Part shown: in pieces, positions 27,440 to 53,491 of the stretch | Position numbering within the stretch: the first letter of the stretch is position 1 | Layout: each line of letters starts with the position of its first letter | Source: Nemertoderma westbladi | Taxonomy: Eukaryota > Animalia > Xenacoelomorpha | Direction: 5' to 3' | Length of the DNA: 58,900 bases | Assembly (NCBI GenBank): GCA_032718475.1 | Contig: JAUCBJ010008789.1 | Coordinates: 1-58,900, forward strand | The notes under the pieces: generated by a model | What the model saw: only the letters and a program-made list of their open reading frames with translations | The model's database searches: none | What the model was told of the DNA's origin: nothing | Translations under genes and position numbers: made by a program

Positions 27440-27962
27440 CCAGACATATCGCCAGACGGTCAACCAGACACGTTACTAGACGGTCAACCAGACGTTTTGC
27501 CAGACATGTCACAAAATGTTCTACCAGACACTAGTAACATACTGACAAATAGTAAAGCCGCAGTTTCTCTATTGGAGCGGCCTTCTATTGACAAACAACC
27601 AGATACGTTACTAGACGGTCAACCAGACGTTTTGCCAGACACGTCACTAGATATTTCGCCGGATGTTCCGCGAAACATTTTACCAGACATGTCACAAAAT
27701 GTTCTACCAGACACTAGTAACGTATTGACAAATAGTAAAGCCGCAGTTTCTCTATTGGAGCGGCCTTCTATTGACAAACAACCAGATATGTTACCAGACG
27801 GTCAACCAGACGTTTTGCCAGACACGTCACTAGATATTTCGCCGGATGTTCCGCGAAACATTTTACCAGACATGTCACAAAATGTTCTACCAGACACTAG
27901 TAACGTATTGACAAATAGTAAAGCCGCAGTTTCTCTATTGGAGCGGCCTTGTATTGACAAAC
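27440..27962 (+). repeat. in-frame coding tandem repeat (135/183/183-bp units built from xxPD tetrapeptides) between RNase H and integrase
   Basis: QPDTLLDGQPDVLPD...SNVLTNSKAAVSLLERPSIDK occurs three times. Confidence 0.9.
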
Positions 27963-30537: not shown

Positions 30538-33500
30538 ATGGAAAAGGGGATACAAGGAGAGCCGAGATGGGGATATGATATCCAAGAGGAGGCAGCAGCG
30601 CCATTTGAAAGATTTGGAGCCAAAGACTACACTATATTTGGTATAAAAGAATTATCAGAAAGTACTGCGAAACTCGCGAGAACTAAATATGACTCAAATG
30701 TATTAAAGAGAAGGCAAAATGCATTAAACGAAAGAATCGAAAGTTTGCGCAAAACCTTCAATGAACTGTACCCGTACGACGCTTTGTGTGATACGGGAGA
30801 CATTAGCAAAGACCCTGATACTGAAATTAGTCGTTTGTATCATACCATGCAATACCTAAAGGCGCACGAACCTATGCCCGCGGTACGCGATGAATTCGAT
30901 GGAATGCATCTTTACAGACGAACTCGAGGGGATGATAGAGAAACCAAGGAAGCATTTTCAGTTTATAAACTTTATTATCAATGCGGTTCTTGTATGCGCG
31001 AACAACGAAATGCGATTCCAATGCGTTTGAATAAGGAAAATCCCGAACCGATATTGGCGAGGTGTTCGAACCATCAACAACTACGCTACCAGGAAGGAGG
31101 GTATCCTTTATCGAATCCATATCATTCATTTGCTATGACCGGACCAAAGGCGGGAGAAACTGTCGTTTACCCACCTAAGGTTGTTGAACCCGATGTATTT
31201 GAACTTACGCTGGACGAGGCAAATCAGTCAACCCGCGAAAAGAAAGAAGCTCTTAGCCTATACAGAGCCTACAAGGCTTTCGAGAAAGGTGAGATGGAAG
31301 AATGGGGCGGAAGACTCGCGAGCCTACCTTACCATTGGACGTCACACGATCAAACTCCAGCTAAGGAGATGACACCGGAAGTTTTCGAGAGCATAAACTT
31401 TGCTCAAAACGTTATTCAGAGACTACAAATTGCATCCCCGGAGAGGACAAGAGAAATGCAACCATATAGTACTTCAACTACGAAACCATTGAGTACGACA
31501 CTCAATTTTCCTATTAGTATACCAGTCCGACAGGATACGACATACGAAATACCCATCGTGGATCATCCAGAAATCATTTCAAACTTGGAGTTTCTTCCTG
31601 CAGTTGTTTTCAGCGATATGAGTAAGATATATGATTTACGTAGACATATTACTCAAAAGGTCGTGTACAACGTTCCACCTCATATTCAAGACTTTAAGGA
31701 ACTGGATAGAGCTGGTGCCGATATAGCTCCGAGTAATTTGAAAGGATATTTAACCAAGACGATTCGTTTATGGATTGGAACCGGAACCTTCGAGTCGGAT
31801 ACAGATATTGCCGCGGATTGGCGAGGTAAGGTTATTCGTTTCGAAGATGATAAGGACATAGAGAAGATTTGGCAACCTTCGGAAGAATTGTTGGATGAAT
31901 GGAATAGAACGTTTAGATCGTTTCAGGAAAACGGTTACATGTTTTACGATAACGAGGGCGGCAGTCATCAACAGAGTTTGACTTCTAAGACTATACAAAT
32001 TAGAGCGGCGGACGGAGTCCTGCACGTTTTCAGTAGACAGAGGAGCGACAAACGAATGCCGATACCTCCAGCAAATACAAAGCGACACCATCTTATCACT
32101 GACATAGTAAAGAAGATGGACCAAGCTTGTAATATCGACGCTAGAATGCTACCGAAGATGGTAAGAAACATGATTTTAGATAAAACTGTTGTAAAGATTG
32201 GATCAGGAGTAAGGGAGGACTTAATTAGCGACTTCGCCGGCATGACGGACAGAGATGACCGACTACCGACACCTTACGTCGACACTCGACCTCTTATTTT
32301 GTGGTCTATAGAACAGGGATATTTTCGTGAGTACAATACTCAGAAGACTGGAACTGGATACATTTCCTACCTGTTATTCAATTGGGATTATAAGGAAAGT
32401 AAGAGAACCAAGTATATTGAGACTTATGGAGAAGGTGATACTCCAGATATGAGTGAGTTTGAATCACAGCTTAAATGGAGAGGATGCGTGTATTGGGCTA
32501 TTACGTCACCTCCAAGAGCGGTCTTACAATATTATTTAGCAATAGAGTCGTCAGTGAATGTTTGCCTAATCGCCGACATTGTGTCTCGGACTCTCAAAAG
32601 ACATCCACTTTGTCTCGGAGAAGATCATACGTTCTACATGGAAGGGAGAATTCATACCGACGTGTTTAGACGATTCCTTGAACCCCTCTACAACTCCGAC
32701 GCTCAGTGTAATGCCTTTACTCGAGCAGGATTTAGTATATTTCGAGACGTGTATCTTCGCTGTGCGGGATCTCTTATCGAAAGACCATCTATGTTTACAT
32801 TGTTACCCTATGAAGGAGAACGTATCGTGGAGATTACCGATGAATCACGGCAGACGCGCGCGCCTATCGGTCACCTTGGTGATGATTTCGAAGTAACTAC
32901 TACGATCACTGACGATCCTTTAGAGGAACTTCTTGAGATAGAAAGGAACCTCCCGAAGAAATCTCAGACGTAGATTCGGCAACTTGAAGCAACAGATGCT
33001 ATAGTTTGTATCCAACCCTCAGAAACCTACCAACCCATAGATCCAGATGATTACGATTATAGTGTGGGAGGAAGCGCTCGACCGATTGGAGATCTTATAT
33101 ACGAACGAGTGTGGTACCCTGCCAATACGATGTGTGGTAAATGTGGCGTCGCTGGACATCATTCGACCAAGTGCAGTGGAAAGCACATTACTACGACTCA
33201 GCTAATCTGTGGATGGTGTGGAGATCAAGGGTCTCATACCTTTTATACTTGCTGGAGATTTATGGCTCAATGTACTTGTTGCAATATAAAAGGGCATCGA
33301 GCATCTGAATGCCAACTAAGAGACATACCTTATGAACACGAATCTGTAAAACTCGTGAGAAAATTATTCGATGAGTGGGAAGATTTAGCCGACGAACATG
33401 TATCGGCACAAAGAAGACGATTTCCGATGAGGGCGCATCTTGGATTTTGGGCGGTAAATCCCCAAACGATGATGTCGGAAGGATACATCTCCGCTATGCC

Positions 33501-34263
33501 CCAATATGACGAACTTATCGAGGTAGTCGATATTTTGCCCCACGACAGTGGATTCCGAGTAGTGCGCGAGTATCTATTACAGATTCACCCGGATAACAAA
33601 AACACGTGGAATTTTCAGAAAGTCGTTAATCGCATCACGTATGGTAAATTCGATCGTTTCCGAACTGAAAAGCGGAATAAAGGAGCTTGGTTAACCGTCG
33701 CATGGGCGTACCGAGCCGCGTTTTACCATAAACGTATATGAGCGAGCGTATTCGAGGAAGAGGAGGTCCTAGAGGCGACAAATATACCAGCCACTCCGGT
33801 TGCGCCGTCTGCACGTCACCCTCGGGAGGACGGACAGGGTAGGATCATACGGGTCCAGAAAGTGGGCCAACAGTTAAAGAAGTCTATTAATATAGAAGAA
33901 CGCAAGGGAGCTGAGCCGACCATTCGAATTACTCGGGATACGGTATCGCTTCCTAGAGAACCAACAGGAGGATCGGGACACACACCAGCTGATCAGAAGG
34001 GGGCGCAAGCTACTCTTGGGTCTGCGTCGTCCGCTTCTCGCGCGTTCCCAGACGTTCTACCAACTGTAGTGACAACTGATCGGTCACGAGGAATCGGTCG
34101 AGGTTTTGGGATGCCAAATAGACGAATTTGCGAGGAAATAGTCGCACCGTCTCTCAACGTCCAAACGAAACCAGTGACTCGCCCCACGAGTCCCATATCG
34201 CGAGCAAAGTCACCTGTGCGCAGTTTTCGAGGACGCGGCAGGGCTCGATCAACAAAGCGATAA
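30538..34263 (+). pseudogene. inner ORF3: zinc-finger region, DEDDy-like 3'-5' exonuclease, three CCHC knuckles, basic tail; in-frame stops at 32971 and 33739
   Basis: ORFs 30538, 33064 and 33862 share a frame. ExoI 'FYDNEG', 'IQIRAADGVLHVF', 'LPKMVRNMILDKTVVKIGSGVREDL' (ExoII), 'YVDT', ExoIII-like 'YLAIE'. Knuckles CGKC..GH...C, CGWC..SH...C, CTCC..GH...C. Colinear with the outer ORF3. Confidence 0.75.
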
Positions 34264-35075
34264 AAGGGAGGGCAAGGGTGGACGGAAGACTCGTGAGCCT
34301 TTCTTGTGAATTTGTGATTTATTTTGAATTATATGTTTTATATTTAATTAGTAAGTTTTGTATTCTGGAAAACTCATATTTAGTAAGATTTATATTTAGT
34401 AAGATTTATATTTAGTAAGAATTTATATTTAGTAAGATTTATATTTGCAAGATTTATATTTTATATTTGTGATTATTCCGAACTTATGCAATTTATATTG
34501 TTCCGAATATTTTGCAATTTATATCTTATAAGCAGTATTTGTATTTACAGTGAAATAGAAAGTAAGAGTAGATGGAAGACTCGTGGGCCTTTCTTATAGT
34601 TTCATTTGTAAAGTGTTATATTTTGTATTTAGAAAGTTTTATAGTTAGAAAGTTTTGTGCTTAGAAAGACTCATATTTGTAATTATTGCGAACTTATGCA
34701 ATCTACATTTAGGCACGAAAGTATTTGTAATTATTTGAATTTATGCAATATTTGAGATGCAATAGTAGATGGAAGACTCGCGAGCCTTTCTTATGATTTT
34801 CATTTATTTGTATTTGTAATTGTTTGAATTTATGCAATATTGAGATGCAATAGATTTATATTTGTGAATTTAATTTAGATTTATATTGTACTTACTTAGT
34901 AAAGCCTTAAATACGTAAAGTTTGAATTTGTAATTATTTTGTATCGAATCATTATGTAGAAAGGAAGTATTGTTTGAAATTTAATTGTAAATATGTAAGT
35001 ACGCCCTAAGTATTCTATAGTTTGATTGATTATTGGTGAAAACCGTATATTTTATGCACGGTAATATCCTGTTTT

Positions 35076-35085
35076 CATGGAGCGG
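35076..35085 (+). promoter_or_regulatory. short polypurine tract of inner element
   Basis: ATGGAGCGG abuts the 3' LTR; the same GGAGCGG abuts the outer 3' LTR. Confidence 0.6.
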
Positions 35086-37840
35086 TATAGAATTATATTC
35101 CCTAAATGCCGTGGATTTTCAAAATTTGTGGCTGGCCACGAGAAAAGGGACCTTATGTCACCGGAGGTCGATTTTGAGTTATTAGGCCTATGAGATGCAG
35201 AATTTTCCAGAGATTTTAACAAAAAAAACAGTGTCTCAGTATCTATTTCCAAAAAAAAGTTATAGCGATTTATGTCAAGGTGAATCGGGTAGCAAAAAAA
35301 ATATTATTAATAGCGGTTATAATAAGCGATTATTTAAAAAAATGGAAAATATTAATAATATCATAGCAATTCTTACTATATAGTTAGGCAGCTCAATGTT
35401 ATTCGGCTTTTTATACAACTTTTAACAATTTGAAACTAATATTGTTCATGAACTATTTTAACACAAATTTTGCAAAATTTTCAAAAAAACATGAAACCAA
35501 AAAATTTTTTTTTTAATTTAAAATTTTTTCAAAAAGATAAATTTTTTTAACGAAATTTAAAATTATTTGTATTTTGAATTCTTTATTGGGATTACAAAAT
35601 TTAAGAACTAACGAAGATTAATTAAGAAAATGACAGCCATATTGCATTTAAAAAATAACTGTAGGCCTACAGTACCTACATAATACAGTAGTACAATTAC
35701 AGTACAATTTATTACAGTCCTAAATTAAGACATGAAAACCCTAAGACAGTGTTATATACAACACTGCAACATCATATATTGCTTCCTGTAATTAGTTATT
35801 TCCTAGGTATATTGAATATCAGAACCAATTTGAATTTCCCTCATCGTTTTATACATTTCTAAATTGATAATCCAATTAAATTTGTTCAAAAATAGAGGGA
35901 AACTTTAAACGCGATTATCTCAGAATCAGGTTTTGCGACATAAGGTCCCTTTTCTCGTGGCCAGCCACATTTGTATTTATTCGAATTAACTTTGTTAAAA
36001 GATTACTTTGAGTCCTCATTTGCATTTGTTATATCTATTGTACGATGTTTAGTCAAGTGGTTCAGTAGCTCAGTCGGTAGAGCGTTGGAAATTATATGTG
36101 TAGTAGGTATTGAGTTCGAATCCTAGTAAGTGCGAATTATTTTTTGTGCAGAATTTCAACTCATTTAAATTGACCGCTACAAATTAAATTGCATTTGTCT
36201 GTACCTAGATTAACCAATGAGACTGTAGTTATTAGATTGTAACCAATGTCGTACAAGTTATATATTAGCTGGACCAATAGCTATCTTTAAAAACCTGTTA
36301 GAACCTATAGAACAATCGAGAATTTTCTCGATTGATTGCGGCACTAATTTGGTATAAAAGGTGCGATTTCGTTCATTAGTTATATATCTTATATCAATCT
36401 CTCTTCTGTATTACTCAATATTTCAATCTTGTTTATTCTGTCATTAGTTTTCAGATTACATTTTGTATTATTATCTGCAATAAATTCAGAAATACCTCTA
36501 CCTGCTTTTCTTTTCACCATGATTCACTACGGTGAACACACTTAGGAACAGGATGGCCGGCTAGAGATCGGGCCGCAGCAATGAACGGGAACATCAAGGG
36601 AATGTAGACAGGAGACAACCCGCAATACCATCTCAGTTATTCGCCCATCGCCTGAAAGGTTAGACAGCGTTCGATGCCTTGCTACCTAAGCGTAAGACCA
36701 AAGATCAAAGGTAGAAGTAGTGACACGCTGTACGCCAAAAATTACATTTAGGGACTGTACTGTCTTAATTCAGGAAAACCCACAGTAGACCTTCATATTC
36801 CTACGGGGGGGGGGGGGGGGGGAGAAAGAGCAGGCAGATACTAGTACGCAGATAGGACGTAGGCACACCGGTACGAAGCATACACATTGGTAGGGTGCAG
36901 CAAACTGTACGCCTAACTCTTGCTAAGTACAGGTGCGTTTGCGACTATTTGTAGTACAACGGTGTTCATTGCATTAGAACTTGTAGGCTAGGAGGGTTGC
37001 TGTGTTTCACCTGAATTGGGATTGTACCGTTCAGGCGGTAGGGCAGTTTACGACTAGGCGCAAATAAATTGAGGCTATTAGGGATATACTAACATCTACC
37101 GTGTCCCCGCCAACATCCTTAGCCGGCCAGGTTACCCAGCCTACCTAGGTGACTAAAATTCTAGATAAGAGCCAGGATAGCTATTTGTAACCGTACGCCT
37201 ACAGTAGTAAACTAACACATTTCTTCTTAGTATTAGGGGCCTGGTAAATTAAAAATTGCCGAATTCTGGGCGTAGCATTAACCTTATGCCTGAATTTGAG
37301 TCCTGGAAATACGCAAGAGGGGAAGGAACCTTATCATTCGTGAGTATTGGACCTACAAGTTACAAAATTAGAATATTTGTAAAATGCACACCGTACCCAG
37401 TAATTATATATATGAAGGAGCAAAACTGCTTTGACTGTTCAGAATTAAAACACGCGCGTTAGAAATTATTTACACCTCAAAATATATAAAATTAACTTTT
37501 GTCCGTACTGTGCTTTGCCCGCTAGTTAGACATCTCCAAATCTCTGCCCCTAGCTAGCGTCTCTTTCGCCCAACCATATAAATCACACCGCGGCAAAGTA
37601 TACGAGCCTCTTAGTCCATCAGTGAGTCAGCCTGATTTTAGGATTCGCTGCGCGGGATTTTGTTTTATCGAAGTTTGTCTGCTCGTAGACTGTTTTCTGC
37701 CTCACCGGTTATAAGAGATCGATACTGCAATATATTCGCTTACTTAGAGTTTACTGTTTTGGTGAGAAGGTCGGATTTATGATTTGATTCACAAACTTTA
37801 CAGTAGGATATTGCAGGTATTGTTACTGTCTCTTCTAATA
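35086..37840 (+). repeat. 3' LTR of inner element, interrupted by a MITE
   Basis: Matches 18268-20175. Contains the second copy of the tRNA-like unit (about 36059-36145). Confidence 0.93.
35128..35968 (-). mobile_element. MITE, Sola1-like (copy 2, inverted relative to copy 1)
   Basis: Same 32-bp TIRs; TSD ATTT (35124-35127, 35969-35972). The empty site AAAATTTGTATTT is seen in the 5' LTR at about 18303. Confidence 0.92.
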
Positions 37841-38284: not shown

Positions 38285-41200
38285 ATGTCTGACACCAAGC
38301 AAAACCTGTCAGACAGTCTCTTAGATACAACCATCTGTTGTGTGGAGTGTGGAACGTGTGAGACCGAAGTTCAACTCACCTCCTACTGTAAGAAAGATCA
38401 TTCCCCCAGTAGTAATATCAGAACCTAGGCTGGTCCAACACCGTAGGTCTGTCATAGGCACTAGAGCTCAGGTCAAGCGGGACCAAGAAGCAGCAGAACA
38501 GCAACCACCCGCGAGCCGAGAACTTATTTCTCAGCGGCCCGACAGTTCCAGTAGTGCGGATACTGTAGAGCTGACACCCAAGCACGAAGCAAAGATGACA
38601 GATGCGGTTTATTCGGACCCCCTTCTCATCCTTCCTGCAGCCGTACTCACTAGGTTATTGATTGCGGTGGAGGAACACCAGATTGATTGGGCGAGAAGTA
38701 AGCGATCGACTAAGGATAGTTATGCGGGATATGCAAGGGAAGAACCGAAGTCTATTGTTGAGTCGCAATGGAACTTCCCCGGACCCGAACTCCCGTCTGA
38801 TTTATCGGAAGCTGCCTGGGAAGACATACACAGGATGGGAGTAACCAAGGAAACCATCGATCCAGCTGTGTGGAAGAGGTCCGCAGCCGGATACGTACAG
38901 GGATTCTTCAGCTCCATGGAGCGATTAGAAGAACAATTGTTTGGACAACCACAAGGACCTCAAGAGCAGGGAGATCTGCTTTATCAAGTTCGAGAAAGAA
39001 TTCTAAGAATCAGACTAATCCTATCGGCCTTTGAGGAGGCTTCGAAAAGAAGACAAGACACGTCGTTGCAAGTTGCCGTAAAGACTTGGTTACAGCGGGT
39101 GAGTCTCCAAGTTCAAAGAACTGCCCCGTGGAAATCTCAGTTATCTGAGCGCTCAACCCATGAAGAATCCACAGACGCTACATTTTCCCAAGTGGAAAGG
39201 GAAGCGACGGTAGAGAAACCGCATAAGAGGGATGCTATTGATATCTATCTGTCGGACTATCAACGTTTTATAGGAGATGAAGAGTTGAGGAGAAGGTTAG
39301 ATGGACTTAGCCCTAACAGTGAAGGAACCAAGCTTGTGTTGGACGCAATCGATGTGGATATGAGAGCTGCGAACCAAGCTAAATTTGATGAACGCCTCCG
39401 CATCACTAGAGTCCAAGAAGAACAAGTAAAGAAAAAACGTATAGAAGACAGAAAGATAGCAGCAGCGGCAGCAGCAGAGGCAGAGGCAGAAAGAAAAGCG
39501 GCAGAAGTGGAAAGAAAAGCGGCAGAAGTGGAAAGAAAAGCAGTAGAAGCAGAAAGAAAGGGAGCAGTGGCAAAAGCAGAACGAAGAGCAGCTGAAGAGA
39601 CCACCCAACTGGAATTGGAGGATATTCAGGAGAGTCGGGACTGCATAAATCAACAGTTAACAGCTAGTCAAATGCAGATGATGAGTCGATCTACTCCCAA
39701 AAGACAGGGATATACATCATCTGAGGAAGGCGATACCACCGATACTGAAGGTGGAGGAAATAGATCTCGTCTCAGCAGACGTAGAAGAATGTCCCACCGT
39801 CAGAAATTGCCTGATTTGCCTCCAGCTGTTCGAAAACAACTAGTTAGCACAGACTTAGGTAGTACAGAACCCACAGACCAAATTATTAAAATAGACAGAC
39901 TCCCTACTATAGTAGATGAGCCTGAAATAATTAGGCCTGTTCTCGAATCCACCCCTTCGGTGATAGAGACACCTGTACTCCCAGAACCTACCTCTAGATT
40001 CCCTTTGCATAGCACTAAGCTACCTGTGCCCAGCAGAACAGCCCAGGAGACAGTTCATGTTCTGGACTCCGAGCGAAATATTAATGATTTGTCGCCCGTT
40101 GTCCCTCGTCCGCCCGCTACAACGTTGGCGGCTCCCGCTTCGGCGGTCGAGTGGGTGGATGAGAGACGGCGGGGGATGGATCTCCTGCTCGGGCAGATGC
40201 AGGAGACAGTTAAGCAGTTCAAGGGCACAGTAAGGGAAAGTAGGTTAGAGTTGCAAGAAGTGCAGCAAAGTATCGCATTAGAACGCGATAAATTAGTAAA
40301 TACACAAAAGGGTATACCACCACCCCCGGTAACAATGTGTCAACCTGTTAGGTCTGAAATATCTCATGCGCAAGGTGTTGAGCCTACACGCATCTATACT
40401 GCTAGCGAAGTAGAAACTCCTATAGTGAACCCTATTAAGGGCAATTATTAACCTGTTGACAATGATATTCCCTATAGACTTGATCATAATCCGAGAAATT
40501 TATATACCGATAACTCGATATTAAATAACACGATGGCCCAAGAAAGTTTTACGCGTCAAATGGCTAGAACCGAAGCCCGTCAAGCGGTAAAGGTGAGAGA
40601 GATAGTCAAGTTCAATGGAGATGAGATGAAATGGTTACCTTTTAATGAATATTACAAAGATAACATACAGAACTCCGTGCTATCTAATGGAGAGAAACTT
40701 AGATTCCTCATCGAGTGCTTGGAAGGATCTCCCAAGTTAATGGCGTTAAAATTTATTGGACATCCAGACGGATTAAGACAAGTTTGGGATACACTAAACA
40801 TCAGGTATGGTAATAGGAATAACATAGCTAAATATTTGTATGCAAAATTAGTAGCGCCCCGAAAGTTCATTAGCAGCGGGATAATAGAGTTTTCCGATGA
40901 GATTCAAGAGATCTGTAGACAATTAGATTGGTTAGGTAAGTCTCATGAATATCAGAGTTCTATGGTTATTGGAGCCGGGGCTTCTACTTTACCGAAGGGT
41001 GGAGTAGGTACACGCTGGGATAAGAAAGTGTTATATATGATGGAACAGCAACGACGAGACCCTACCATGGCTGATCTCATGTCATTCTTAGATGGATAAG
41101 TGAAATTACAGCTCCTAAAGCAGTCCAGAGAGAAGACACCGGAAAACAAGGTAAGTGAGAAACCCGTTTCTAGGAGAAAGGTAACACCAGTGTGTTATAC

Positions 41201-44200
41201 AGACGACGGCGAAAGCCAGACTTCTCAAGGAGAGGATAGCGGGAAAGACACTGAAAGATCTTATTATGTCAATAAAACGCCTAAAGAACAGGTAAGTAAA
41301 TTCAAGTCTCGAACCAATGACAGGAGAGAACAGGTAAGAAAAACTCCTCCTACGTCCCCCAAGAGAATTCAGGTGAGAAAGCCCGAAGAAAGAACGAGTG
41401 TGCACAATGTTATTCAAAATAAGGTAAGTAACATCAAACCGAAATGTGCGCTATGTGACGGGACCCACCGTTTGAATATGTGTGATGAATTCCTGAAGAA
41501 ATCATTAACGGAGAGACGGGAAGTCATGTGGGATAAGCGGTTGTGTTATAATTGCCTCAGACAAGGACACCAACGGCGGACCTGTTACTCCGACACAAGG
41601 TGTGCAAAGTGCAGTGCGAAACATCATATCATGTTGCACACTGAATTCGAACGAAACAGCCCGAGTCAGGTAAGTTATTCCGAACTACATGTCCAATTCA
41701 GTGATGTGAACGACACTGACCAAAGTTCTGAGATGGAAGGATTCTATACGGATGAATTCTCAGACGAAGATGAATCCTGTTACATGATAAATACCGCAGT
41801 GTATCGAGCACTTACGTATGAAAAAGACACAGACAGCGACCTCACCCTAACTACTTCTGATCGACAACCATTTTGGAAAGCGCCAACTTCCCATGTAGGA
41901 ATCCGAGAATTTCCTGTAGTACAGTTAAGGCTTCACGGACCTAAAAGGAGTTATATAGTGAACGCCCTTCTCGACTCCGGTAGTACAGGAACATTCATCG
42001 ACAAAGAACTAGCTGAAGACATCTTTGCTGGACAACCCAAGTTCCGAACTAAGCTAAACATGTCAGGAATTATGCAGGTTTGGAAATCTACAGTAATAGC
42101 GGATTATTATGTAGGTGCATTGTCCACCCCCCAAGATGAACTAGGAGAACATAGTATAAGGTCAGTAAAAATGGTTGCGATAAAGAACTTCGCTACCAGC
42201 CAAGTGGAACCTTATAACTGGGATGAGGACGATTTCACCCAGCAGCTCGAAATACCTAGTTTCAACACCGATTATCCTGGAGTGCAAATACTCATCGGTC
42301 AAAACGCGCATGAAGCGCTCGAGACATTGGAGAAACGGCCTGCTCAACCGCAACCACTACAAGCTTATGCGGGAAGAACTAGAGTGGGTTGGTACTTTAC
42401 TGGCCCTTCCCGTAGAACTCTCATAGAAAGATTACCGAAAGATCAGGTATATCAGGTAAGAGAATGGGAAGTTGAGAGCAGTGAGTTAGACGATCCAACT
42501 GAGGGAACACCATACTCCTCAGATAATGACGATGTCCACCAACTCTTCGATGAGGAGAATACCATTGATCTCCTTAAGGAAAACGAGACTTGGCAAAACC
42601 AAGTGAACTTATGTCAGCTACTCCGTCCATCAGACCGAGACGACTATAACGACGAACTGAATGACGTCATTGAACGTTGTAATGCCAAGACTCGGGATGA
42701 ACACGCCATACGATTCTTTACTCAAGAGGCTGTAGAGCCCAATTCCTACGATAAGGCCCTATCGGTAGAAGAAGAAAGAGCCAAGCAGATCCAAGAGACA
42801 ACTACACGTTTTCTTAAAGATCAAGGTAGATATGAAATCGGTCTACCTTTCCGAAAGCGAGAACCAAAGTTCATAAACAACATACCCTTGGCGGAGAAAA
42901 TAATTGCTCAACTACATCGACGCCTTACGGCAAATTCTTCAGCTAAAGAAATGTATCAAACGCAGTTGAGGAAATTTATTAGCAAGGGATATGCGGAGCG
43001 AGTGCCGGAAGAAACACCTATAACTGAGAGAACGTATTATTTAACTCACCATTACGTTCCCAAACCCGGTAAACCCCATGAGGTACGAGTGGTGTTTGAC
43101 GGCTCCGCCCTCTATATGGGCCAATCCCTTAATTCCGAATTGTTACCCGGACCCAACTTACTCCAATCCTTGTTGGGAATACTTTTAAGATTAAGACAAT
43201 ATTCAATCGCTTTCGCCTCAGATTTAGAAGGCATGTTCTTACAAGTCAAGGCGCTAGATAGGGATCGAGATAGCCTACGATTTCTGTGCTGGCCTGAAGG
43301 AGACCTTAACCAGAAACCGTTGGAGTACTGGATGACCATCCAGGCTTTTGGGATAATCTCAAGCCCTTCAAACGCCTGTTCAGTGGTACGCACCACTGCG
43401 GATGACAACCGAGAAGCCTTCTCTAAAGAGGTGATTGACAACATCAAACGAGATATATACATGAACGATAATCTAAAGTCCCTTCCATCAGTCGAAGAAG
43501 CCATTGATGTCGCTAAAGGAACGGTAGAGTGCTTAAAAAGAGGTGGATTTCGATTAACTAAATTCACCAGCAACTCCCGTGAGTTTCTGGAGTCGATCCC
43601 AGTAGAAGATCGAGGAGCGAAAGACCTGGATCTAATCAAAGATGATCTTCCAGAAACCAAGACACTTGGTTTGAAATGGGACACAGAGAGAGATATCCTG
43701 TTTTTCCAGCTAAAACAGCGAGATAATCCAGTTCGGACTAAACGGATTTGTTTAAGTATCCTGAGCACTTATTTCGATCCATTGGGATTTATTAGCCCAG
43801 TTATATTGATTGCTCGGAGTTTAGTACAACAAATGTGGCTTGAAAACCACTCATGGGACGATCCACTTAAGGGAGAATTATTAAAGAAGTGGATGAAATG
43901 GGAAGATTCTCTACCAGCCATCGAGAACTTTATAATTTCCCGTTCATATTTTGGTCATGTTCTCCCTACGTATTCCTATCAACTCCATGTGTTTGGAGAC
44001 GCCAGCGATATGGGAATAGGTATAGTAGCCTACCTAAGAGTGGAAACTCCGGATGGAATCAAGGTCGCCTTGGTTACCTCTAAGGCATTGATAAACAACA
44101 AGTTGAAAGTTCCTCGAGCGGAGTTAAAAGCGGCTCTATATGCTACAGCCATCGGCCGGAATGTAACAGAACAGATCGATTATCCGTTGGAGAAAACTGT

Positions 44201-46338
44201 CTATTGGACCGACGCTTTACTCGTGTTGGAGTATATAACCAATGAAGTCTGTCAGTTCAGCGTCTTCGTTACCAACAGAGTAGCTATTATACTCAGTCGC
44301 ACAACGATGGATCAATGGAGACATTGCCCCGGAACGATCAATCCAGCAGACATCGCCTCCAGAGGAGCTACTCCACAAGAACTGGTAGATACTCCAGACT
44401 GGTTAGGTGGACCCGACTTCCTCTACAAAGAAGAAGAAGAATGGCCTCCTCATCTTACTACGGCAGAGATCAGACAGGCCAAGGGAGCGGAGAAAGTCAA
44501 ACCTAAAACTCAGGCGAGTAAATCGAAGTTATTTAAACCTATGGTAGATCTGTCTGTACTGCAGACTTCCGGAGATGACGCTTTGGATCAGAAACCCACA
44601 GCCACAAATAAGTTTGTTGTGGAAATCCGTGAGAAGGATTGGAAATCTGGAATACCAGACGTCTCGCAAGGACTCTCACCTCTCCTGCAGAGAGCGATAC
44701 ATCACTACAGTTCCTGGAATCGGCTCTGTAAGGACATATTTAAAAAGATGTTTTCACCATCACTACTCCGGGATGAAGACCAATAGTGATACCGCTCCGC
44801 TGACATCGGTGCAGGTCCATGTTGTTAAAGATCTTCCCAAATATAAGATATCCGACAGGTTTCTGAAGGAGAAGATCAGTTATCAGGAGCATGAAGAAAC
44901 CAACAAGCAGATGCTGAGACTCCTGCAATGCTATGATGATTCCGATAAGTATTTCCTGTTGTTGAGAAATCCACAAATGCGCTTAAAGGATCGTTTCTCT
45001 AGCACAATGATAGATGGGTTGATACGTGTTGGAGGAAGATTAACAAATGCTCCATTATCCTTTGACACTAAGTTTCCCATACTCATTAGAAATCTTGAGA
45101 TACAAGTCAAGATGATTGTAGATGTTCACAGCAAACTTTATCATGCTGGTAGAGAACGAGTTCTTAGCGAAATTCGAACTCGCTATTATTTTTATAAACC
45201 CCGTAGAGCTCTGAACCAAGTTCTTAGGAACTGCATACCCTGTAGGAAAGCATTCAGTAGGCCTTTAACACAGCGAGAGGCAGAATTACCTAGGGAACGA
45301 GTAAGCTTCTATGAACCACCCTTTACTAATACCGGTGTGGATTTATTTGGCCCTATTGAAGTATATCGTGCTAGGACTATAGTCAAGAGATGGTGTGTCA
45401 TCTTTGTTTGTATGACTTGTAGAGCTATCCATCTCGATATGGTGAACGATTTATCTACCAACAGCTTCCTATTAAGCTTACGACGACAGATCGCTCGCTT
45501 TGGAACTAGTAACACGATGAGATCTGATAAGGGAACAAACTTCATTGGTGCCAACAATGAAATCAAAGCTTACGTCAAAGATTGGAACCAAAGACAGGTG
45601 GACGATCAGCTACGAATAACAGCGTCTAGCTGGACCTTCAACGCCGCCGACGCCCCTTGGTGGGGAGGAAGTTGGGAGAGATTAATAAGAAGTGTGAAGA
45701 CCGCATTTCACTTTATAGTGCCGTGCCGCGCGTATCTCACCGACGAACTTTTGCGGACGTTAATGGAGGAAATCGCCGCCTATCTTAACGAGAGACCGCT
45801 TATGCCAGTCTCATCGAGTCCCGATTCCCTGGAAGCGCTAACACCCGCGCACTTCCTACTGAAGAAACCTGTAGCCATGCTCCCACAATCGGAAATCACA
45901 GACGGAGACGAATACTGCCGGCAAACTTGGCAACTTATGCAGTTGTTATCCCGTCGTTTCGCTGACCATTTCGAAAAGCACTATCTGCCCATGCTACAAC
46001 TTCGAACGAAGTGGTTTGCGCAGCAAGAAAACGTCAGCGCTGGAGACATGGTCCTTATTGTGGATTCAGATCTTCCACGTAAGCGGTGGCAGACAGGTCG
46101 TATCATCGAGACTCACATCTCGGATGACGGTTTGGTGCGATCGGTAGAACTCGTCGTCATGCGACGTAACTTCAAGAAACCGGGAATTGTCTTCGAGACA
46201 CAGCAGCTCAATCGCCCAGTTGGTCGTTTATGTTTACTGGAAAGAGACAGAGAACTCTCCGGAAACTATGGAAGGCAAGATACTCTTCCCACGACCACCT
46301 CCCTAATCCAACAAACATCTAGGGACTCCCCAGCTTAG
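38285..46338 (+). pseudogene. outer BEL/Pao gag-pol, disrupted
   Basis: Likely start ATG at 38285 (MSDTKQ, compare inner MSDKQ) followed by a frameshift. In-frame stops at 40449 and 41097, frameshift near 44730-44786. Motifs KFNGDEMKW, triple CCHC, LLDSGS, RT YMND (DD mutated), FGDAS, VPRAEL, NPADIASRG, DLFGP, SDKGTNF, WWGGSWERL. Confidence 0.92.
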
Positions 46339-47157: not shown

Positions 47158-47717
47158 TTGTGTCTATTCAACATTAAATAATAAAATTTACGGGAATAAA
47201 TTTAAATTCATATTTTTAATGAATTTAATAAATTGTCATTTTTATACAATTTATAACATTCCCAAAATTCCTTTAATTAATAGATCATGGGAGCGGAGAT
47301 TCACTCTATTAAGTGTATTAGTGTGCGAGAATCTCCAATATATAGTCAATAGCCGATAAAATTCATAAAATCATGTATAGAGAGGATATTGACCATTAAA
47401 GAATTACTATTATATAGCATCCCAGATCTGTATGCATGAGAATTACCCTAATTCTACCGCTAGCTTTCCATAATGTCACCATGGCAACAACCACGCTAGA
47501 ATTAGAAGTGAGTTAAAAGAACAATAGAAAGCTTGCCCCATTGAATAGCATAGGGAATAAATAGCGCACTGCTAGTATCCAAGGATACATAATAAATAAA
47601 GTGACATTCTGGAAGGCACTGACTAACGGACAAATGGCCCGAATGTGTACAGTTTGTGACAGTTGTGTTGAATTTGTGCGTTTATAGGTGAATGTTACTG
47701 CTAAAGTGTGTTTACAG

Positions 47718-47978: not shown

Positions 47979-50900
47979 ATGACTGAGTTGATAGAAGATG
48001 ATCTTGGTATCAGGGAGCGATATACTCTACCTTTACAAGCGTTTGTCGATAGCTTGATACGCGGCGACGCTGGTCCAACTACTATGGAGGACGATGGCCG
48101 TTATATCGAACCGCCAATGTCCCAGGAGCAACTTAAGCGTGAATTGGATTATAGAAAGTTCACCGCTCGCTATACGCATCGTAATGGTACGTATATGGAC
48201 TTCTTAACTACTGGCCATCATATCGATTTACACGATACGGACGATGTAGACACCGAAAGGGAAATGGTTTTATTTAAATATCATACCCAGCGGAGTCGGA
48301 ACGATACACCGAGAATAGAACACGAGAACTCTATTCGAAACAGACTCGCAAGGGAAGACGTTGAAGAACCGGATAAACGCAGCGACTTCAACGATTATCT
48401 GGAATTCCTGAGAGAGACATATCTCAATATTGCCAGCCAACAAAATCTCGAAACTCGATATCCTCAAGGTATACATCATGATCCTATGATAGAACTCAAA
48501 CGACTCTATTTCACCATGATGTATCTTACCACCAATCGACCGCTACCTGTCGTCCCAGATAGCTTCGAACAGATGGAAGAATATTGTAAAACTGGAGAAT
48601 GATCACCCGCGTTTCCCCTGCAGGACGTGCGTCTTTGGTATTACTGCGACGAATGCCCTAGACCCAATCAGCAAACGGAAAGACATAAACATCCGCGGAG
48701 ACGTTGCGCTAAACACAGTTTTACACGATATACTTATGGGAGTTTCGAGCGAAACCTGTTCGACGTATCACCTACGGTCGCTCGGCTCAAACGATCCTTG
48801 AATAAACCAATGATCAGAGTTCCGGAGTACTCGGTCAGACCTCCTCATTCCTCAGTTAGACCTCAGACTCTTGATCCTAATAGTATCACGGATCCTCCCG
48901 AACTGTACTCACTGTTCAAAGATCTAGTGTTACCCGAACAGTTGATCGGTGGCACTCCGGTAGTAGGCTCGCTAGATATTCGCCAACCCTAACTAGCCGG
49001 ATTAGGACGCGGTCATATGATATCGCCGTTTAACCCGTACAACCGTCCCGGCTTAACCCCAATACAACCCGTTACGGAAGTCGAAGAGAGCATCGTACGA
49101 AACGCGTTAGACGCTATTCGGCAGAAAATCGGAAAGGGAACTTACGATTGTTTGGAGAAACGTAAATTGCAGCAACAAGTCCAAGCGGTGAAGGAATTAG
49201 CTTTATCCCAGTTCGATAGAGAAATACAAAATCTCGAGGAGGACATCGAACGTGGACGAACCTACTCTTTACAAGAGTTCCTAGATGAGCGTCTACAACA
49301 ACAAGCGGAGGAAAATCAGCTCGAGGGGAGACATATAGAACTAGATGAGAGAGAAGAAGCAGCTTTAGCTCAACCCGAAGCTCAAATCCTTATGACGGAT
49401 CTCTACTCTAAAACCATCCTTCATCCCTCGATGGTTCCCCATTTCGGAGACAAACTCTTTGCGACGGTACAACCCCAACCGGTTGATATCAACCTAAGAT
49501 CTCGAGATCTTATAGCTGACGCTCCCATGTTGCAACGTCCGCCCATCGAAGCCGCTCGTGTCGATGGTATACTCGTTGAACCTCCGGACAATAGAGCGGA
49601 TCTTGTCCGTCGCATGGTACACGATGTTAACATACGCGCTAGACCTTTACCGGACTCGTTTTATGGGATCAAAGATCACCCTTATTACGTCAATCTAACG
49701 CAATATTACATGGTAAAACCAGAAGATCCTACACATAGTCTGAGGTTTCTACCACTCATAAATCCTCTCGATCTTGTCGAACTCGAACAACTGCAGAAAC
49801 ATCTGGATCAGTTAGTTAAAATAAACTCATTTCGAAAACCATACAATGTTTCCAGAATAGAGAAAGAAACAATACCTCCGTATAATCTTGATGGATTCAT
49901 CAAAACTCGATTAGTACACTGGAATCTTGACGTGTTATTCGAGGAGGAAAGAATACAACGATATGGAGATGTGGAAACATATACTACACAATATTTAAAG
50001 TATAGAGACCTACCTAATGCTAGCGAATGCGCTACCTTGTGGCATCCAGTGGGAATGACCCTCGAAAACGCCACTAAAGAGTGGAACGAAACTCTTAACG
50101 TTATCGAGATGTATGGAGTTGTCACTTACGATAACGAAGGTAGCGTTCCGGTTGGAGAACTGGGAACTACGCGGATGATACACATACGAGGACTCGCTGG
50201 TTCTACCCACGTATTTACTCGAGCGTGTTCCGATGTGATTGATTATTCTTTTGAGACTCTTACTGAGACACAAAAGAAACTCCGACATGGACAATTCGAA
50301 CTCGCGCAGCGTTACGTCACCGACACCGAGCGCAAACCGGCCATGGGTATCGATGGATCGATGTTACCCCAGCCCGTGCTGGAGATGTTGTTTAACGAAA
50401 GAATCCTTAAAATTGGCTCAGCTGTTTATGGAGATTTACAAAACGACTTTCGGAATATGGAGAACATTCCATACCCTTTCGTTGATACTCAGCTGATTGC
50501 TCCCTGGGCAGAAGGCCGAGGTTTCTTCCGCACTATGTATGCCAATACACCCAGTGGCATTACTAAAGTACAACGAACCTCCATCGGACATCTTGCCTTT
50601 CAAGAATACGGATGGAATTTCAAGGTTGGAAATCCCATCAATTACCAACAAGTATATGGAGATCATTATTCTCGTTTATACTTTGATGGACCATTGACCG
50701 CACCTGGCGCCGTGTATAGCTTTATGAGTGTTCCACTTCGTCCCTCCTTAGCTATATACACGATCTTTGAAAACGCAGCACTTGCCGGTTGGCTAGCCGA
50801 TGTGTGCAGTCGTACCATATGCGCCCATCCCTTAATACTTGGAACCAAACTCGCCAAGTTAGATGAACACAATAAATTCATCCGCTTCGAATGTTTCAGG

Positions 50901-52232
50901 TGTTTTCTGACTCCGTTCCATAACGTTGATAGTCAGTTCAAGGACCGCGCTCTGACCAAACTCAGCCTTAGAGACTCAGCTGCGGAGAAGCTTAACAGCG
51001 CGGGATTTGCCCTCTTTCAGGACGTTTGTATACAGAACTTACATTCATCTGTTATACAAAGACCCCGAATACCCACAGGTTATTCTGTCGTGGAAGTTCA
51101 GACAGTGGGTCCGCTTGCGGAGACAGCCGCACCTACCTCAGCTATGCAATTGGAAGACGAACCAATATGCTTAGAATCTGAGGCGATTCAGCCTACAGCG
51201 CCCCGGAGCAGCGATAACGATTACGTCTTAGAGTGGTATCAAGGTCCACAATGTCTCACCGCATACGATTATCGACACGCCAACTATGTTTCTCGAAAAC
51301 GTTGTCGATTATGCTCATCGAGAGACCATTTCACCCCTATGGACTCAGACGTACCCTGCTCCTATTTCCACAAACAACCGATGATGGAGATCTATTGTGC
51401 GTATTGCAGACTTAATAACTCGCATATTTTTGCAGTCTGCCCCCAATTTATGACCCAATGCCACCACTGTCAACTTAAAGGACATGCCAGTTATAATTGC
51501 CCCTTTAACCGCGATTTAGAAAGCGTAGATGAGATGATTACCCTGCGCTACATCCGAGCTTGGGAAGCGAACGCGGATTTACATTGTGAGTCCCGCCATC
51601 GCTATTACCCTGGACGCTCTTACGAGGGAGTTTACGCGTTCCATCCTTATTTATTCGCGTCTGTGGAACAAAAAACACGCACACCGAGTTACGAACTAAT
51701 GAAGCGTGTTGGTGAGTGTATTTCCACCAAATTTGTTCGAAAATATCTTAGGAACGTCAATCCTAACGATATTACTTCATACCATTTGATCAATTTCATC
51801 CGTCAAGACCCTGAGTATGGCGATTTATTTATCAACTCGCACCCTGAGTTACAGGAAGTATCTCGACGGCCCTACGAATATCGAGCCCGAGAACGTGAGC
51901 TGGAAAGAACCATTAAACTGAGGAAGTTTCTCACCACTCACGGTCCACCTACCGCCATTGTCCAGACGACCCGTCAAGGACCCGTAGGAGCTGCTGTCCT
52001 AAGACGCGCCCTAAAGGCCGTTAGACCTCGCTCCACTGAAGTTGATATCGATCAACCAGGTACCTCGACCGGCGGATACACCGATCGTAATCCTAAACCT
52101 TCTAATGCAATTGTATTGCACCCTTCACCCAGGAGTTACAGCCCTCCTAGTAAAGTGGCTCGCCCCAAAGAGAAAAGGACTCTTGCTAGCCTCAAAAAAC
52201 TGCGTAAACGCCGTCCGCGTAAGAAAGACTAA
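47979..52232 (+). pseudogene. outer ORF3: zinc-finger region, DEDDy-like exonuclease, three CCHC knuckles, basic tail; in-frame stops at 48600 and 48990
   Basis: ORFs 47979, 48627 and 49017 share a frame. 'TYDNEG', 'IHIRGLAGSTHVF', 'LPQPVLEMLFNERILKIGSAVYGDL', 'FVDT', 'SIGHLAFQEYGWNFK', 'PLRPSLAIYTIFE'. Knuckles CRLC..H..C, CAYC..SH...C, CHHC..GH...C. Confidence 0.78.
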
Positions 52233-52309: not shown

Positions 52310-53491
52310 TGTAAAAGCTTTTGCGGAATTAACCGGTTATTTTCCCTGCAAAGTACTCTGTAGTTGGTTTAACAGGCAAAAAAGGCCGTGTCCTTACTGT
52401 ACTGGTGTTTTAAGGGACATAAAAAGCTATTTCTTCTGTATGTGTACTTTAGCGGACATAATTAGCAATTCTATGACGCAATGCGCTGGATCCTCTTGAA
52501 ACAGTGTAGTTACTATGACGACAGCTAACAGCTGAGCTGTACACGTGTAGATTTTCCCTTGTTCTCTGGTGTTTCTTTGTTCGGTCAACCAATCAGAGCG
52601 ATTCTCCTGCTTTTGTACAGAAACCTCCGAGAAATCGTGCAATGCATTATGGGTCAATGTTTACATTTTTGTCTTGAGCCTAGAAGACCGGCTTTTGGAA
52701 TCTCTGTGTTTTTCAGTCTTTAGCCCAACATTAGTAGGCTTAATTATAGAACGTATATCTGTTATCATAACAAACCATATCAAACAAACTTAACTTATCA
52801 TACCAATTCATAACCATTCATACCTTAACATTTGTACTGCTGTTTACTGTCGGTTATTCATTATATCTGTTGATGGAATATTATATTTGGAATACTGATA
52901 AATAATTACAAACCCTCGATCTTCTTGATATACTGAAGGTTAGAGAGACCGGTTACATATAACGATTGCGACTTACATTAAAGTGGTTTGAAGTGAATCT
53001 AATGCTATTTCATAGGCACTACATGTATTGTCTGTTGTTCTCTTTATATGTGACTAAAATTAGTGAAGGTCGGCAGATCAGTGTGCAGCATTGTGCAGTA
53101 TTGTGTATGATTGTGACTGATAACAAAGCATCTCCTAAAGAATGCGCCATATACGTGAATCTATAGCCATCCTGTTGTGTCTAGTTTAAGTCATAACTCT
53201 GTTTACATATTTAGAGCGCCACGTCCTAAAGGAACTGTTAATATTTCCCGAAAGTGAATAATATTTGTCAGAGATTATATATTACGATCAGTCGAATAAT
53301 ACAGTAGGCCTACACCGCAATACGGTTAAGCTTCCGAATCCCGGGTATATCCAGCGGGTGAATGATCGCGCATAGACTGGCTTCGGCTAATGTAGTGTAT
53401 CAAATACTTGTCAGAGGCTAAAGACGATCTATTATCTAAAAGACATCCCAATTTGGCAGGTTAAACTGCTAAAGGTCTGAAAGCGCGAACA
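52310..53491 (+). repeat. 3' LTR of outer element
   Basis: Preceded by TGGGAGCGG; TGTAAAAG...GAACA, followed by TSD CTCAC. Confidence 0.95.

What the first reader, a model, noticed from the sequence alone, without database searches (positions are those of the whole stretch)
47979..52232. Non-env ORF3 encoding a DEDDy-like 3'-5' exonuclease with zinc knuckles (outer element)
Seen: a ~1400-codon frame after pol with no obvious signal peptide or transmembrane segment. It has D-x-E (YDNEG, 50130-50138), a 'LP..V.EML....ILKIGS....DL' block, VDT, 'SIGHLA...GWNFK' and 'PL...LAIYTIFE'. This motif order matches the WRN/EXD/RNase D (DnaQ, DEDDy) family, with YxxxE in place of YxxxD. Three CCHC knuckles follow (the first pair loosely nanos-like), then a Lys/Arg tail. 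Established: the ORF3 slot normally holds env. From memory, DEDDy ORF3s have been reported in bdelloid rotifer LTR elements (needs verification), so the novelty would be this large multi-domain architecture. Inference: roles in RNA trimming, primer maturation, proofreading or anti-silencing.
Basis: partly seen in the sequence, partly recalled or inferred. Interest (0 to 1): 0.85.

Follow-up and report, generated by a model that had tools for sequence, protein, structure and literature searches.

The report
Exonuclease gene in giant BEL/Pao retrotransposons
Two unusually long BEL/Pao jumping genes, one nested inside the other, each carry a third gene predicted to encode a 3'-end-trimming nuclease with three zinc knuckles where an envelope gene would sit; both copies are broken by stop codons, and the nuclease likely serves the element's own copying.

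Summary
The observation mostly holds. The 1417-codon frame follows pol, lacks a membrane segment and has the listed motifs, but it is broken by two in-frame stops (48600, 48990); the nuclease and knuckle part is stop-free. The host element is BEL/Pao, not gypsy. A second BEL/Pao element nested in it carries a homologous ORF3 (26% identity over 744 columns, saturated silent sites), and one database protein shares the layout. All three keep D-x-E, D and Y-x-x-x-E, so the fourth acidic residue is a family trait. Several weak but concordant profile results point to the RNase D/EXD2/WRN (DEDDy) group; both folds were too poor to confirm it. The knuckles are nucleocapsid-type, not nanos-type. Both elements are about 18.6 kb and lack a tRNA-type primer site; the bases after the 5' LTR pair with their own LTR (Tf1-like), but ORF3-less relatives show a shorter form of this too. 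DEDDy ORF3s are published for rotifer gypsy-like elements; I found none for BEL/Pao. Verdict: new variant of a known kind. Likely an RNA 3'-end trimmer used in replication; counter-silencing is a close rival; activity is untested.

The parts
47979..52232 (+). ORF3 of the outer element, 1417 codons, broken by in-frame stops at 48600-48602 and 48990-48992
48366..48752 (+). N-terminal domain of unknown family shared with the inner ORF3, ending in C-x2-C ... C-x2-H (possible zinc site); spans the first stop
   Evidence: 30% identity, E 8e-12; alignment with X at the break; no Pfam or PDB match of note
50073..50840 (+). DEDDy-like 3'-5' exonuclease domain: D718 (50130), E720 (50136), D819 (50433), Y927 (50757), E931 (50769); about 35 extra residues between motifs I and II and about 30 before motif III
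   Evidence: joint alignment with 10 bacterial and phage DEDDy domains and hhalign with shuffles
51303..51500 (+). three zinc knuckles (CX2CX4HX10C, CX2CX5HX4C, CX2CX4HX4C), followed by a conserved W..A..H....R.R.P.R block
   Evidence: zf-CCHC_3 E 0.084 only
52173..52229 (+). Lys/Arg-rich tail (NLS-like by eye); inner ORF3 and P0001 also end basic
15337..16519 (+). 5' LTR of the outer element (TG...CA), 5-bp target-site duplication CTCAC
52310..53491 (+). 3' LTR of the outer element; 7 substitutions in 1176 aligned bases against the 5' LTR
16520..16531 (+). primer-site position of the outer element: no TGG; 12 nt perfectly complementary to 15775-15786 in its own LTR (21 nt at 86%)
38325..46338 (+). 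gag-pol of the outer BEL/Pao element (DUF1759, Peptidase_A17, integrase, DUF5641); stops at 40449 and 41097, frame change near 44550-44790
47290..47296 (+). GGAGCGG in the pol-ORF3 spacer, the same 7-mer that abuts the 3' LTR (52303-52309); candidate second plus-strand primer site
18268..37840 (+). nested inner BEL/Pao element (TAT...ATA ends, target-site duplication TAAAG; LTRs 18268-20175 and 35086-37840)
30538..34263 (+). ORF3 of the inner element, 1241 codons, same domains and D-E-D-Y-E residues; in-frame stops at 32971-32973 and 33739-33741
20176..20186 (+). primer-site position of the inner element: no TGG; 11 nt perfectly complementary to 19131-19141 in its own LTR

Best explanation
The frame is the third gene of a BEL/Pao LTR retrotransposon, broken in this copy by two stop codons, and is predicted to encode an RNase D/EXD2-like 3'-5' exonuclease with three zinc knuckles that would likely trim 3' ends of the element's own RNA during replication. 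Shown: the element's class and limits, the stops, a homologous ORF3 in the nested element, long-term protein-level conservation, and the same D-E-D-Y-E residues in three sequences. Predicted (about 0.85): DnaQ/DEDDy fold. Inferred (about 0.7): intact relatives are active, the Glu of motif III binding metal as Asp does. Inferred (about 0.45 among the possible substrates): the knuckles and basic tail load the enzyme on element RNA, where it removes unpaired 3' tails up to a duplex, as RNase D does on tRNA precursors (established knowledge), for example finishing the self-primer or clearing host-added tails from the template.
For: BEL/Pao domains: DUF1759 E 1.2e-11, Peptidase_A17 E 3e-36, DUF5641 E 3e-20; LTRs and target-site duplication. 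Outer against inner ORF3: 26% over 744 columns; nuclease core 35% amino-acid identity, codon positions 0.50/0.55/0.31, four-fold sites 0.26 against 0.27 expected at random, a pattern like integrase (44%; 0.49/0.64/0.29). The two elements group together on integrase (SH-aLRT 99) and RT-RNase H (96). Nuclease family: ESM Atlas 0.92, with 23 of 30 hits in PF01612 clusters plus a PF01612/PF13482 row; P0001 0.94, 25 of 30; the only PDB hit of the 3-sequence profile is human EXD2, E 0.12; RNase D TIGR01388 E 0.005; hhalign to E. coli RNase D E 1.9e-5; hhalign score 37.1 against 10 DEDDy domains (highest of 100 column shuffles 19.1) and 12.9 against 5 DEDDh domains. P0001 knuckles match HIV nucleocapsid at E 1e-4 and Air2 at 0.064. 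Both elements lack TGG after the 5' LTR and meet the published self-primer criterion (at least 10 nt starting 0-5 nt after the LTR; PMC6317226, passages): 12 and 11 nt from +1, reached by 0 and 1 of 1000 shuffles.
Against: No Pfam exonuclease match for either window protein at E<=1; P0001 only E 0.2. Significant profile alignments cover only motif II (47-48 columns); motifs I and III rest on one MAFFT mode (E-INS-i), while the other modes and the alignment tool misplaced motif I of P0001. Window-only profile scored 24.3 against a shuffle maximum of 20.1. Atlas shared features 155-156 of 256 for the window domain, under the 170 usual within a family. Folds failed: pLDDT 34.6 and 43.4, no Foldseek E<=0.001, no VIA Z>=5. 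The canonical motif III Asp is absent. 5 of 7 examined BEL/Pao relatives without room for an ORF3 also show a 7-9 nt self-pairing run from +1, and Tf1 makes its primer with RNase H alone (PMC7175516, passages), so self-priming does not need this enzyme. ORF3 is separate from Gag-Pol, so packaging is not shown. The tree program warns that long branches meet. No expression or copy data. Both window copies are broken.
Confidence: 0.4

Rival explanations
1. Counter-silencing nuclease: an active DEDDy-like enzyme that over-trims host piRNA/siRNA, or destroys the element's own RNA or DNA by-products, so that the host does not silence or sense the element.
For: Nearest solved relatives in the weak hits are EXD2, Egalitarian, WRN and RNase D; Mut-7/Nibbler-type members trim small RNAs (established knowledge; Mut-7 role raised in PMC5408684). 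Arenavirus ExoN is suggested to suppress innate signalling (PMC7968707, passages). A stand-alone ORF with a basic tail suits a host-facing protein. Self-pairing primer sites occur without ORF3.
Against: No direct data. Nucleocapsid-type knuckles fit binding of element RNA equally well. Mature piRNAs carry a 2'-O-methyl end that resists such enzymes (recalled).
Confidence: 0.3
2. Pseudo-nuclease: the Asp-to-Glu change and the insertions have disabled catalysis, and the protein works as an RNA-binding adaptor, as Egalitarian, EXD1 or Maelstrom do.
For: Motif III has Glu in all three sequences; PMC5408684 names EXD1 and Maelstrom as inactive derivatives; Egalitarian is among the weak Foldseek rows; earlier scan notes report dead exonuclease cargo (unchecked).
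Against: Four carboxylates and the Tyr are kept in three sequences that share only 24-35% identity. I recall that the matching Klenow change D501E keeps much activity, but a search did not retrieve it, so this is recalled only.
Confidence: 0.15
3. Proofreader: the enzyme removes mispaired or untemplated 3' bases from nascent cDNA, which lets this lineage keep an 18-19 kb RNA genome, as ExoN does for large nidoviruses.
For: Both elements are 18.6-18.7 kb without their insertions, against 6.6-6.7 kb for two annelid BEL/Pao elements (PMC8220671, passages) and about 7-8 kb for the ORF3-less relatives with both ends. ExoN goes with genomes of 20 kb or more (PMC7968707). Weak hits include polymerase proofreading domains.
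Against: Much of the extra length is ORF3 itself, long LTRs and AT-rich spacers. No link to RT is shown. Only two elements, of one clade.
Confidence: 0.1
4. Passenger: a host gene captured recently and decaying, with no role for the element.
For: Both copies have two in-frame stops; 8 stops are seen in the four coding regions against about 3 expected from LTR divergence.
Against: Gag-pol carries the same load of stops (4 of the 8). Silent sites are saturated while the protein is conserved. Same slot in two deeply diverged elements; no close host gene found among 1.84 billion representatives.
Confidence: 0.05

Closest known systems
DEDDy ORF3 of bdelloid rotifer LTR retrotransposons Juno1/2 and Vesta2/5, shared with Athena/Terminons (Rodriguez, Kenefick and Arkhipova 2017, PMC5408684; parts 1-3 of 5 read, figures not seen)
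   Same: Non-env ORF3 after pol; RNase D-like DEDDy domain; no TM segment; an Asp-to-Glu change in the DEDD set; function untested.
   Different: The paper's families are Juno, Vesta, TelKA and Mag and it never mentions Pao, whereas these are BEL/Pao. Its motif is DEED, here D-E-D-E. It describes no knuckles in ORF3. Here the ORF is 1241-1417 codons with an N-terminal domain and three knuckles; LTRs are 1.2-1.9 kb against 159-551 bp. Sequence kinship could not be tested.
Cellular DEDDy exonucleases RNase D, EXD2, WRN, Mut-7/Nibbler, Rrp6, Egalitarian (PF01612)
   Same: Motif order and spacing; the LP...L.D..I.K.G...D block and the P..DTQ block.
   Different: YxxxE; two insertions; no HRDC match; fused knuckles; below every curated cut-off.
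env-like ORF3s of BEL/Pao elements: Drosophila roo F-like protein, mosquito Chuviridae/gB-like glycoproteins (PMC13524379, passages)
   Same: Third ORF between pol and the 3' LTR of a BEL/Pao element.
   Different: No hydrophobic segment, no glycoprotein match; an enzyme-like domain instead.
Tf1/sushi self-priming (PMC7175516, PMC6317226, passages)
   Same: 11-12 nt just after the 5' LTR pair with a site in the own LTR; no tRNA-type site.
   Different: BEL/Pao rather than Ty3/gypsy; the site lies 733 and 1034 nt before the LTR end; transcript start unknown.
P0001 (unnamed 648-aa protein, 9449-base contig)
   Same: D-x-E, D, YxxxE, three knuckles, post-knuckle W/G/R block, basic tail.
   Different: Lacks the long N-terminal part and the motif I-II insertion; genomic context unknown, so it is not shown to belong to a BEL/Pao element.

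Membership tests
BEL/Pao (Belpaoviridae) LTR retrotransposon | Gag DUF1759, Pao-type Peptidase_A17 region, integrase after RNase H with DUF5641 | tested here: met
   both elements
BEL/Pao (Belpaoviridae) LTR retrotransposon | Two LTRs and a short target-site duplication around gag-pol | tested here: met
   5-bp duplications; inner ends are TA...TA, not TG...CA
DEDDy 3'-5' exonuclease (PF01612 group) | Motif I D-x-E at the end of the first strand | tested here: met
   D718/E720 align with D-x-E of 10 reference domains in E-INS-i; inner protein hits DnaQ motif I at E 0.039; other alignment modes disagreed for P0001
DEDDy 3'-5' exonuclease (PF01612 group) | Motif II Asp after the K-x-G/H block | tested here: met
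   D819
DEDDy 3'-5' exonuclease (PF01612 group) | Motif III Y-x-x-x-D | tested here: not met
   Y-x-x-x-E in all three sequences; therefore filed as DEDDy-like, not as a canonical member
DEDDy 3'-5' exonuclease (PF01612 group) | RNase H-like fold with clustered carboxylates | tested here: inconclusive
   models pLDDT 34.6 and 43.4; 5 of the top 14 Foldseek rows are DEDDy nucleases but all E>1; no VIA Z>=5
DEDDy 3'-5' exonuclease (PF01612 group) | Metal-dependent 3'-5' exonuclease activity | not testable with these tools
   needs a bench assay
Rotifer Juno/Vesta DEDDy ORF3 | Carried by Juno/Vesta or Athena elements | tested here: not met
   carrier is BEL/Pao
Rotifer Juno/Vesta DEDDy ORF3 | DEED motif | tested here: not met
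   paper text says DEED; here D-E-D-E; the figure was not seen
Rotifer Juno/Vesta DEDDy ORF3 | Falls in the same clade of retroelement nucleases | not testable with these tools
   no rotifer sequence was returned by any search
env / fusion glycoprotein | Signal peptide and C-terminal transmembrane anchor | tested here: not met
   highest 19-residue hydropathy 1.19 and 1.38; no Pfam env match
Nanos zinc finger | zf-nanos double CCHC with its long spacings | tested here: not met
   no Pfam match at E<=1; first knuckle is CX2CX4HX4C in the inner element and CX2CX3HX4C in P0001
Rrp6/RNase D with HRDC | HRDC domain after the nuclease | tested here: inconclusive
   no HRDC match in Pfam, but the protein is divergent throughout
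Tf1-type self-priming | At least 10 nt starting 0-5 nt after the 5' LTR complementary to the own LTR; no tRNA-type site | tested here: met
   12 and 11 nt from +1; criterion from PMC6317226; a half-tRNA primer could not be excluded
Tf1-type self-priming | The complementary site is the first bases of the transcript and is released by RNase H | not testable with these tools
   no transcript data

The most novel reading that the evidence does not exclude
A deep clade of 18-19 kb self-priming BEL/Pao retrotransposons encodes its own active D-E-D-E exonuclease as a replication enzyme: it trims the element's RNA or cDNA 3' ends back to a paired end, finishing the primer across a 0.7-1 kb loop or proofreading, and so lets a reverse-transcribing element more than double its genome, as ExoN did for nidoviruses.
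Probability: 0.2. Interest if true: 0.85.

Novelty: new variant of a known kind. Interest (0 to 1): 0.55.

Why it matters
The one paper I found on nuclease ORF3s in LTR elements covers rotifer gypsy-like families and leaves activity and role open (PMC5408684). This extends the cargo to a second LTR superfamily, with a different motif change and an RNA-binding module, and shows it is old and conserved rather than a recent capture. The stop-free nuclease domain and P0001 give a direct handle on that open question: is it active, on what, and does it act on the element or on host defence. If it is a replication enzyme, it would be a proofreading or end-processing activity in a reverse-transcribing element, which I did not find described.

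Tried and rejected
Homologue searches: the search for homologous proteins gave 0 hits for the outer ORF3 (593-1889 aa range), only P0001 for alignment A3 and 0 at E<=10 for A4; phmmer of 1.84 billion representatives gave 1 hit. The search for related loci with ORF3 alignments: none in viral contigs, metagenome contigs or prokaryote genomes; integrase: none in viral contigs. 0 of 79 metagenome BEL/Pao loci carry an ORF3 relative, but only 12 of 79 have 3 kb or more downstream of integrase. A4 rang in neither E. coli nor the phage genome although both hold PF01612 domains, which shows how weak the profile is. A DNA pattern scan for WRN-like viral nucleases gave 66 of 66 chance matches. Phage and plasmid tblastn gave only E 3-10 rows; one of them lies on a phage PolA exonuclease domain, one was a chance hit, one unrelated. 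Both AlphaFold jobs failed for lack of depth; fold searches are not evidence either way. Rfam: nothing in the window at gathering score or in 15300-20800 at E<=1; ARAGORN found no tRNA. No genome is held and no sequencing runs were available, so copy number, dN/dS among close copies and expression are open. Rejected: env; nanos finger; an alternative genetic code as the cause of the stops (they are TAA, TAG and TGA); the idea that ORF3 is needed for self-priming. Paper searches: DEDDy+retrotransposon+exonuclease+ORF3; 'BEL Pao' with exonuclease or DEDD (this spelling matched no paper, so these two are weak); Pao+LTR retrotransposon+exonuclease+ORF3; Belpaoviridae; BEL-Pao+third ORF; DEDDy+LTR+Pao since 2017; self-priming. 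I saw listings and abstract starts only, except for the papers cited as read. None listed a BEL/Pao exonuclease ORF or BEL/Pao self-priming; subscription journals, Repbase and supplements were not seen.
Full report
What is there. The frame 47979-52232 translates to 1417 codons and a terminal stop, with in-frame stops at 48600-48602 and 48990-48992. The highest 19-residue hydropathy is 1.19, so there is no membrane segment.

The carrier. Self-comparison shows two nested LTR elements. The outer one runs from 15337 to 53491, with TG...CA ends and a 5-base target duplication. The inner one runs from 18268 to 37840, with TA...TA ends and its own 5-base duplication. Both have DUF1759, Peptidase_A17, an integrase and DUF5641, that is BEL/Pao. 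LTR pairs differ by 7 of 1176 and 9 of 1861 bases, so both insertions are young. Without their insertions they measure 18,577 and 18,718 bases; two annelid BEL/Pao elements measure 6.6-6.7 kb (PMC8220671, passages).

ORF3 is a family trait. The inner element has a 1241-codon frame in the same slot (30538-34263, also with two stops) that aligns with the outer one at 26% over 744 columns, E 8e-58, plus an N-terminal block at E 8e-12. In the nuclease core, identity is 35% for residues and 0.50/0.55/0.31 for codon positions; four-fold sites are at the random level (0.26 against 0.27), as in integrase and RT. The gene has therefore been conserved as protein for as long as pol. The two elements group together against 79 metagenome BEL/Pao integrases (SH-aLRT 99, quick tree; the careful search did not finish) and against 44 RT-RNase H rows (96, FastTree); both runs warn of long branches. 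None of the 79 loci has an ORF3 relative, though only 12 of 79 extend 3 kb past integrase. Among 1.84 billion representatives one protein matched, P0001 (E 8.7e-5), a singleton on a 9449-base contig with the same nuclease motifs, three knuckles and a basic tail; its context is unknown. The stops look like decay after or shortly before insertion: gag-pol carries 4 of the 8, and they are of all three kinds. Their number exceeds the roughly 3 expected from LTR divergence, which I cannot explain.

Is it a DEDDy nuclease? No single strong hit says so. Pfam finds nothing in the window domains and gives P0001 E 0.2 for DNA_pol_A_exo1. But the weak results agree: Atlas 0.92 with 23 of 30 hits in PF01612 clusters and 0.94 with 25 of 30 for P0001; EXD2 as the only PDB hit of the three-sequence profile, E 0.12; RNase D E 0.005 and 0.032 for the outer domain and DnaQ E 0.039 for the inner; hhalign to E. 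coli RNase D E 1.9e-5 over 47 columns and to a phage PolA domain E 0.001. Against 10 bacterial and phage DEDDy domains the profile scores 37.1 (highest of 100 shuffles 19.1) and against 5 DEDDh domains 12.9; the window-only pair scores 24.3 (shuffle maximum 20.1); the DEDDy HMM's best hit in the six frames of the window is this domain, E 0.037. In the joint alignment D718, E720, D819, Y927 and E931 sit on motifs I, II and III, with Glu for the last Asp in all three family members. Against: only motif II is covered by a scored alignment, other MAFFT modes misplace motif I of P0001, and the profile did not ring in two genomes known to hold PF01612. Both AlphaFold models were poor (34.6, 43.4). 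I put the fold at about 0.85 and call the domain DEDDy-like, since YxxxD is not met.

Knuckles. Spacings are CX2CX4HX10C, CX2CX5HX4C and CX2CX4HX4C in the outer protein; the first is canonical in the inner one. P0001's pair matches HIV nucleocapsid at E 1e-4 and Air2 at 0.064; the outer region matched Air2 only at E 7.5. 'Nanos-like' is a feature of one degenerate copy.

Context that bears on mechanism. Neither element has TGG after the 5' LTR. In both, the bases from +1 pair perfectly with a site in the own LTR: 12 nt (21 nt at 86%, the top inverted repeat of the region) and 11 nt, reached by 0 and 1 of 1000 shuffles; 1 of 1499 and 6 of 1499 leader positions do as well. This meets a published self-primer criterion (PMC6317226, passages) and resembles Tf1, where RNase H releases an 11-base primer (PMC7175516, passages). 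As a control, 23 loci showed a long direct repeat pair, most cut by contig ends; I examined 7 of the 23 whose repeat end looked real. Five (four families) have a 7-9 nt run from +1 (5-56 of 1000 shuffles), two have none, and those five have only 433-726 bases from integrase to LTR end, so no ORF3. Self-priming thus seems common in BEL/Pao, as unchecked notes of this scan also say, and does not require the nuclease. What is special here is the long loop (733 and 1034 nt), the element size and a repeat of the 3'-LTR-abutting 7-mer in both pol-ORF3 spacers.

Mechanism. I commit to an RNA 3'-end trimmer that works on the element's own RNA (0.4 overall): a DEDDy-like site, nucleocapsid-type knuckles, conservation on a par with pol, and a replication cycle with exposed RNA ends. 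Each step after the fold is inferred. Counter-silencing (0.3), a catalytically dead binder (0.15), cDNA proofreading (0.1) and a passenger (0.05) are the rivals. That Glu can stand in for the motif III Asp is recalled from Klenow mutagenesis and was not retrieved.

Comparison with print. PMC5408684 (parts 1-3 of 5 read; passages; figures and supplement not seen) describes DEDDy ORF3s in rotifer Juno and Vesta and in Athena elements, with DEDD changed to DEED and activity untested. Two reviews repeat this (PMC5718144, PMC6431247, passages; PMC6338049, passages). Third ORFs reported for BEL/Pao are fusion glycoproteins (PMC13524379, passages); a mollusc survey has no mention of exonuclease (PMC6238403, passages). 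Searches listed no BEL/Pao exonuclease. Unchecked scan notes report Rrp6-like nuclease-plus-knuckle ORF3s in gypsy elements and none holding all the BEL/Pao words, which suggests repeated capture of this module and lowers the surprise somewhat.

Verdict. Real, conserved, broken in these two copies; a new variant of a known kind: new superfamily, new motif form, new architecture, in giant self-priming-type elements. Interest 0.55.

Noticed in passing
window 16520-16540 with 15766-15786; 20176-20186 with 19131-19141: Neither element has a TGG primer site; the bases from +1 after the 5' LTR pair with the own LTR (Tf1-like self-priming signature). The inner primer-site 11-mer is repeated at 20215, and its LTR partner is followed by an 18-G run.
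   Followed up: yes
L021, L025, L023, L038, L075 (LTR ends): ORF3-less BEL/Pao relatives begin GT after the LTR and pair 7-9 nt with their own LTR 76-119 nt before its end; in some the site follows a pyrimidine-rich AG, which could be an initiator or a splice acceptor.
   Followed up: partly
window 29980 and 47290 against 35079 and 52303: The 7-mer that abuts the 3' LTR recurs in the pol-ORF3 spacer of both elements: candidate central plus-strand primer. 11 matches in the window against 2.8 expected, but three lie in one tandem repeat in pol.
   Followed up: partly
window 18268-20175: Inner LTR has TAT...ATA ends rather than TG...CA, and tRNA-like A and B boxes by eye at about 18400-18465; ARAGORN and Rfam call nothing.
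   Followed up: partly
window 35118-35972 and 13644-14492: An 855-base non-coding element interrupts the inner 3' LTR only; an inverted copy at 96% identity lies outside the elements.
   Followed up: no
four coding regions of the two elements: 8 in-frame stops against about 3 expected from LTR divergence (Poisson P about 0.01 by hand) but few frame changes: copies may have been mobilised while already defective, or the LTRs understate age.
   Followed up: partly
window 27439-27987; 22793-22945; about 46890-47160: In-frame 183-base triple repeat between RNase H and integrase of the inner pol; an 81-base duplication in the inner gag; an imperfect duplication of about 165 bases in the outer pol-ORF3 spacer (by eye).
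   Followed up: no
window 30166, 34291, 34777: A motif beginning CT(T/C)G(C/T)GAGCCTTTCTT recurs in the non-coding DNA on both sides of the inner ORF3.
   Followed up: no
window 520-1290 (+), 3657-5015 (-), 6615-8000, 9478-10941: Host side: uninterrupted RRM/FoP (ALYREF-like) frame, RCC1-repeat frame, a 19-base minisatellite, and fragments with weak RT and DUF6451 matches.
   Followed up: no
ESM Atlas and BFVD rows: The nearest look-alikes of the window domain are 357-506 aa exonucleases of giant DNA viruses; those of P0001 are fungal and plant clusters. Too weak to name a donor.
   Followed up: no
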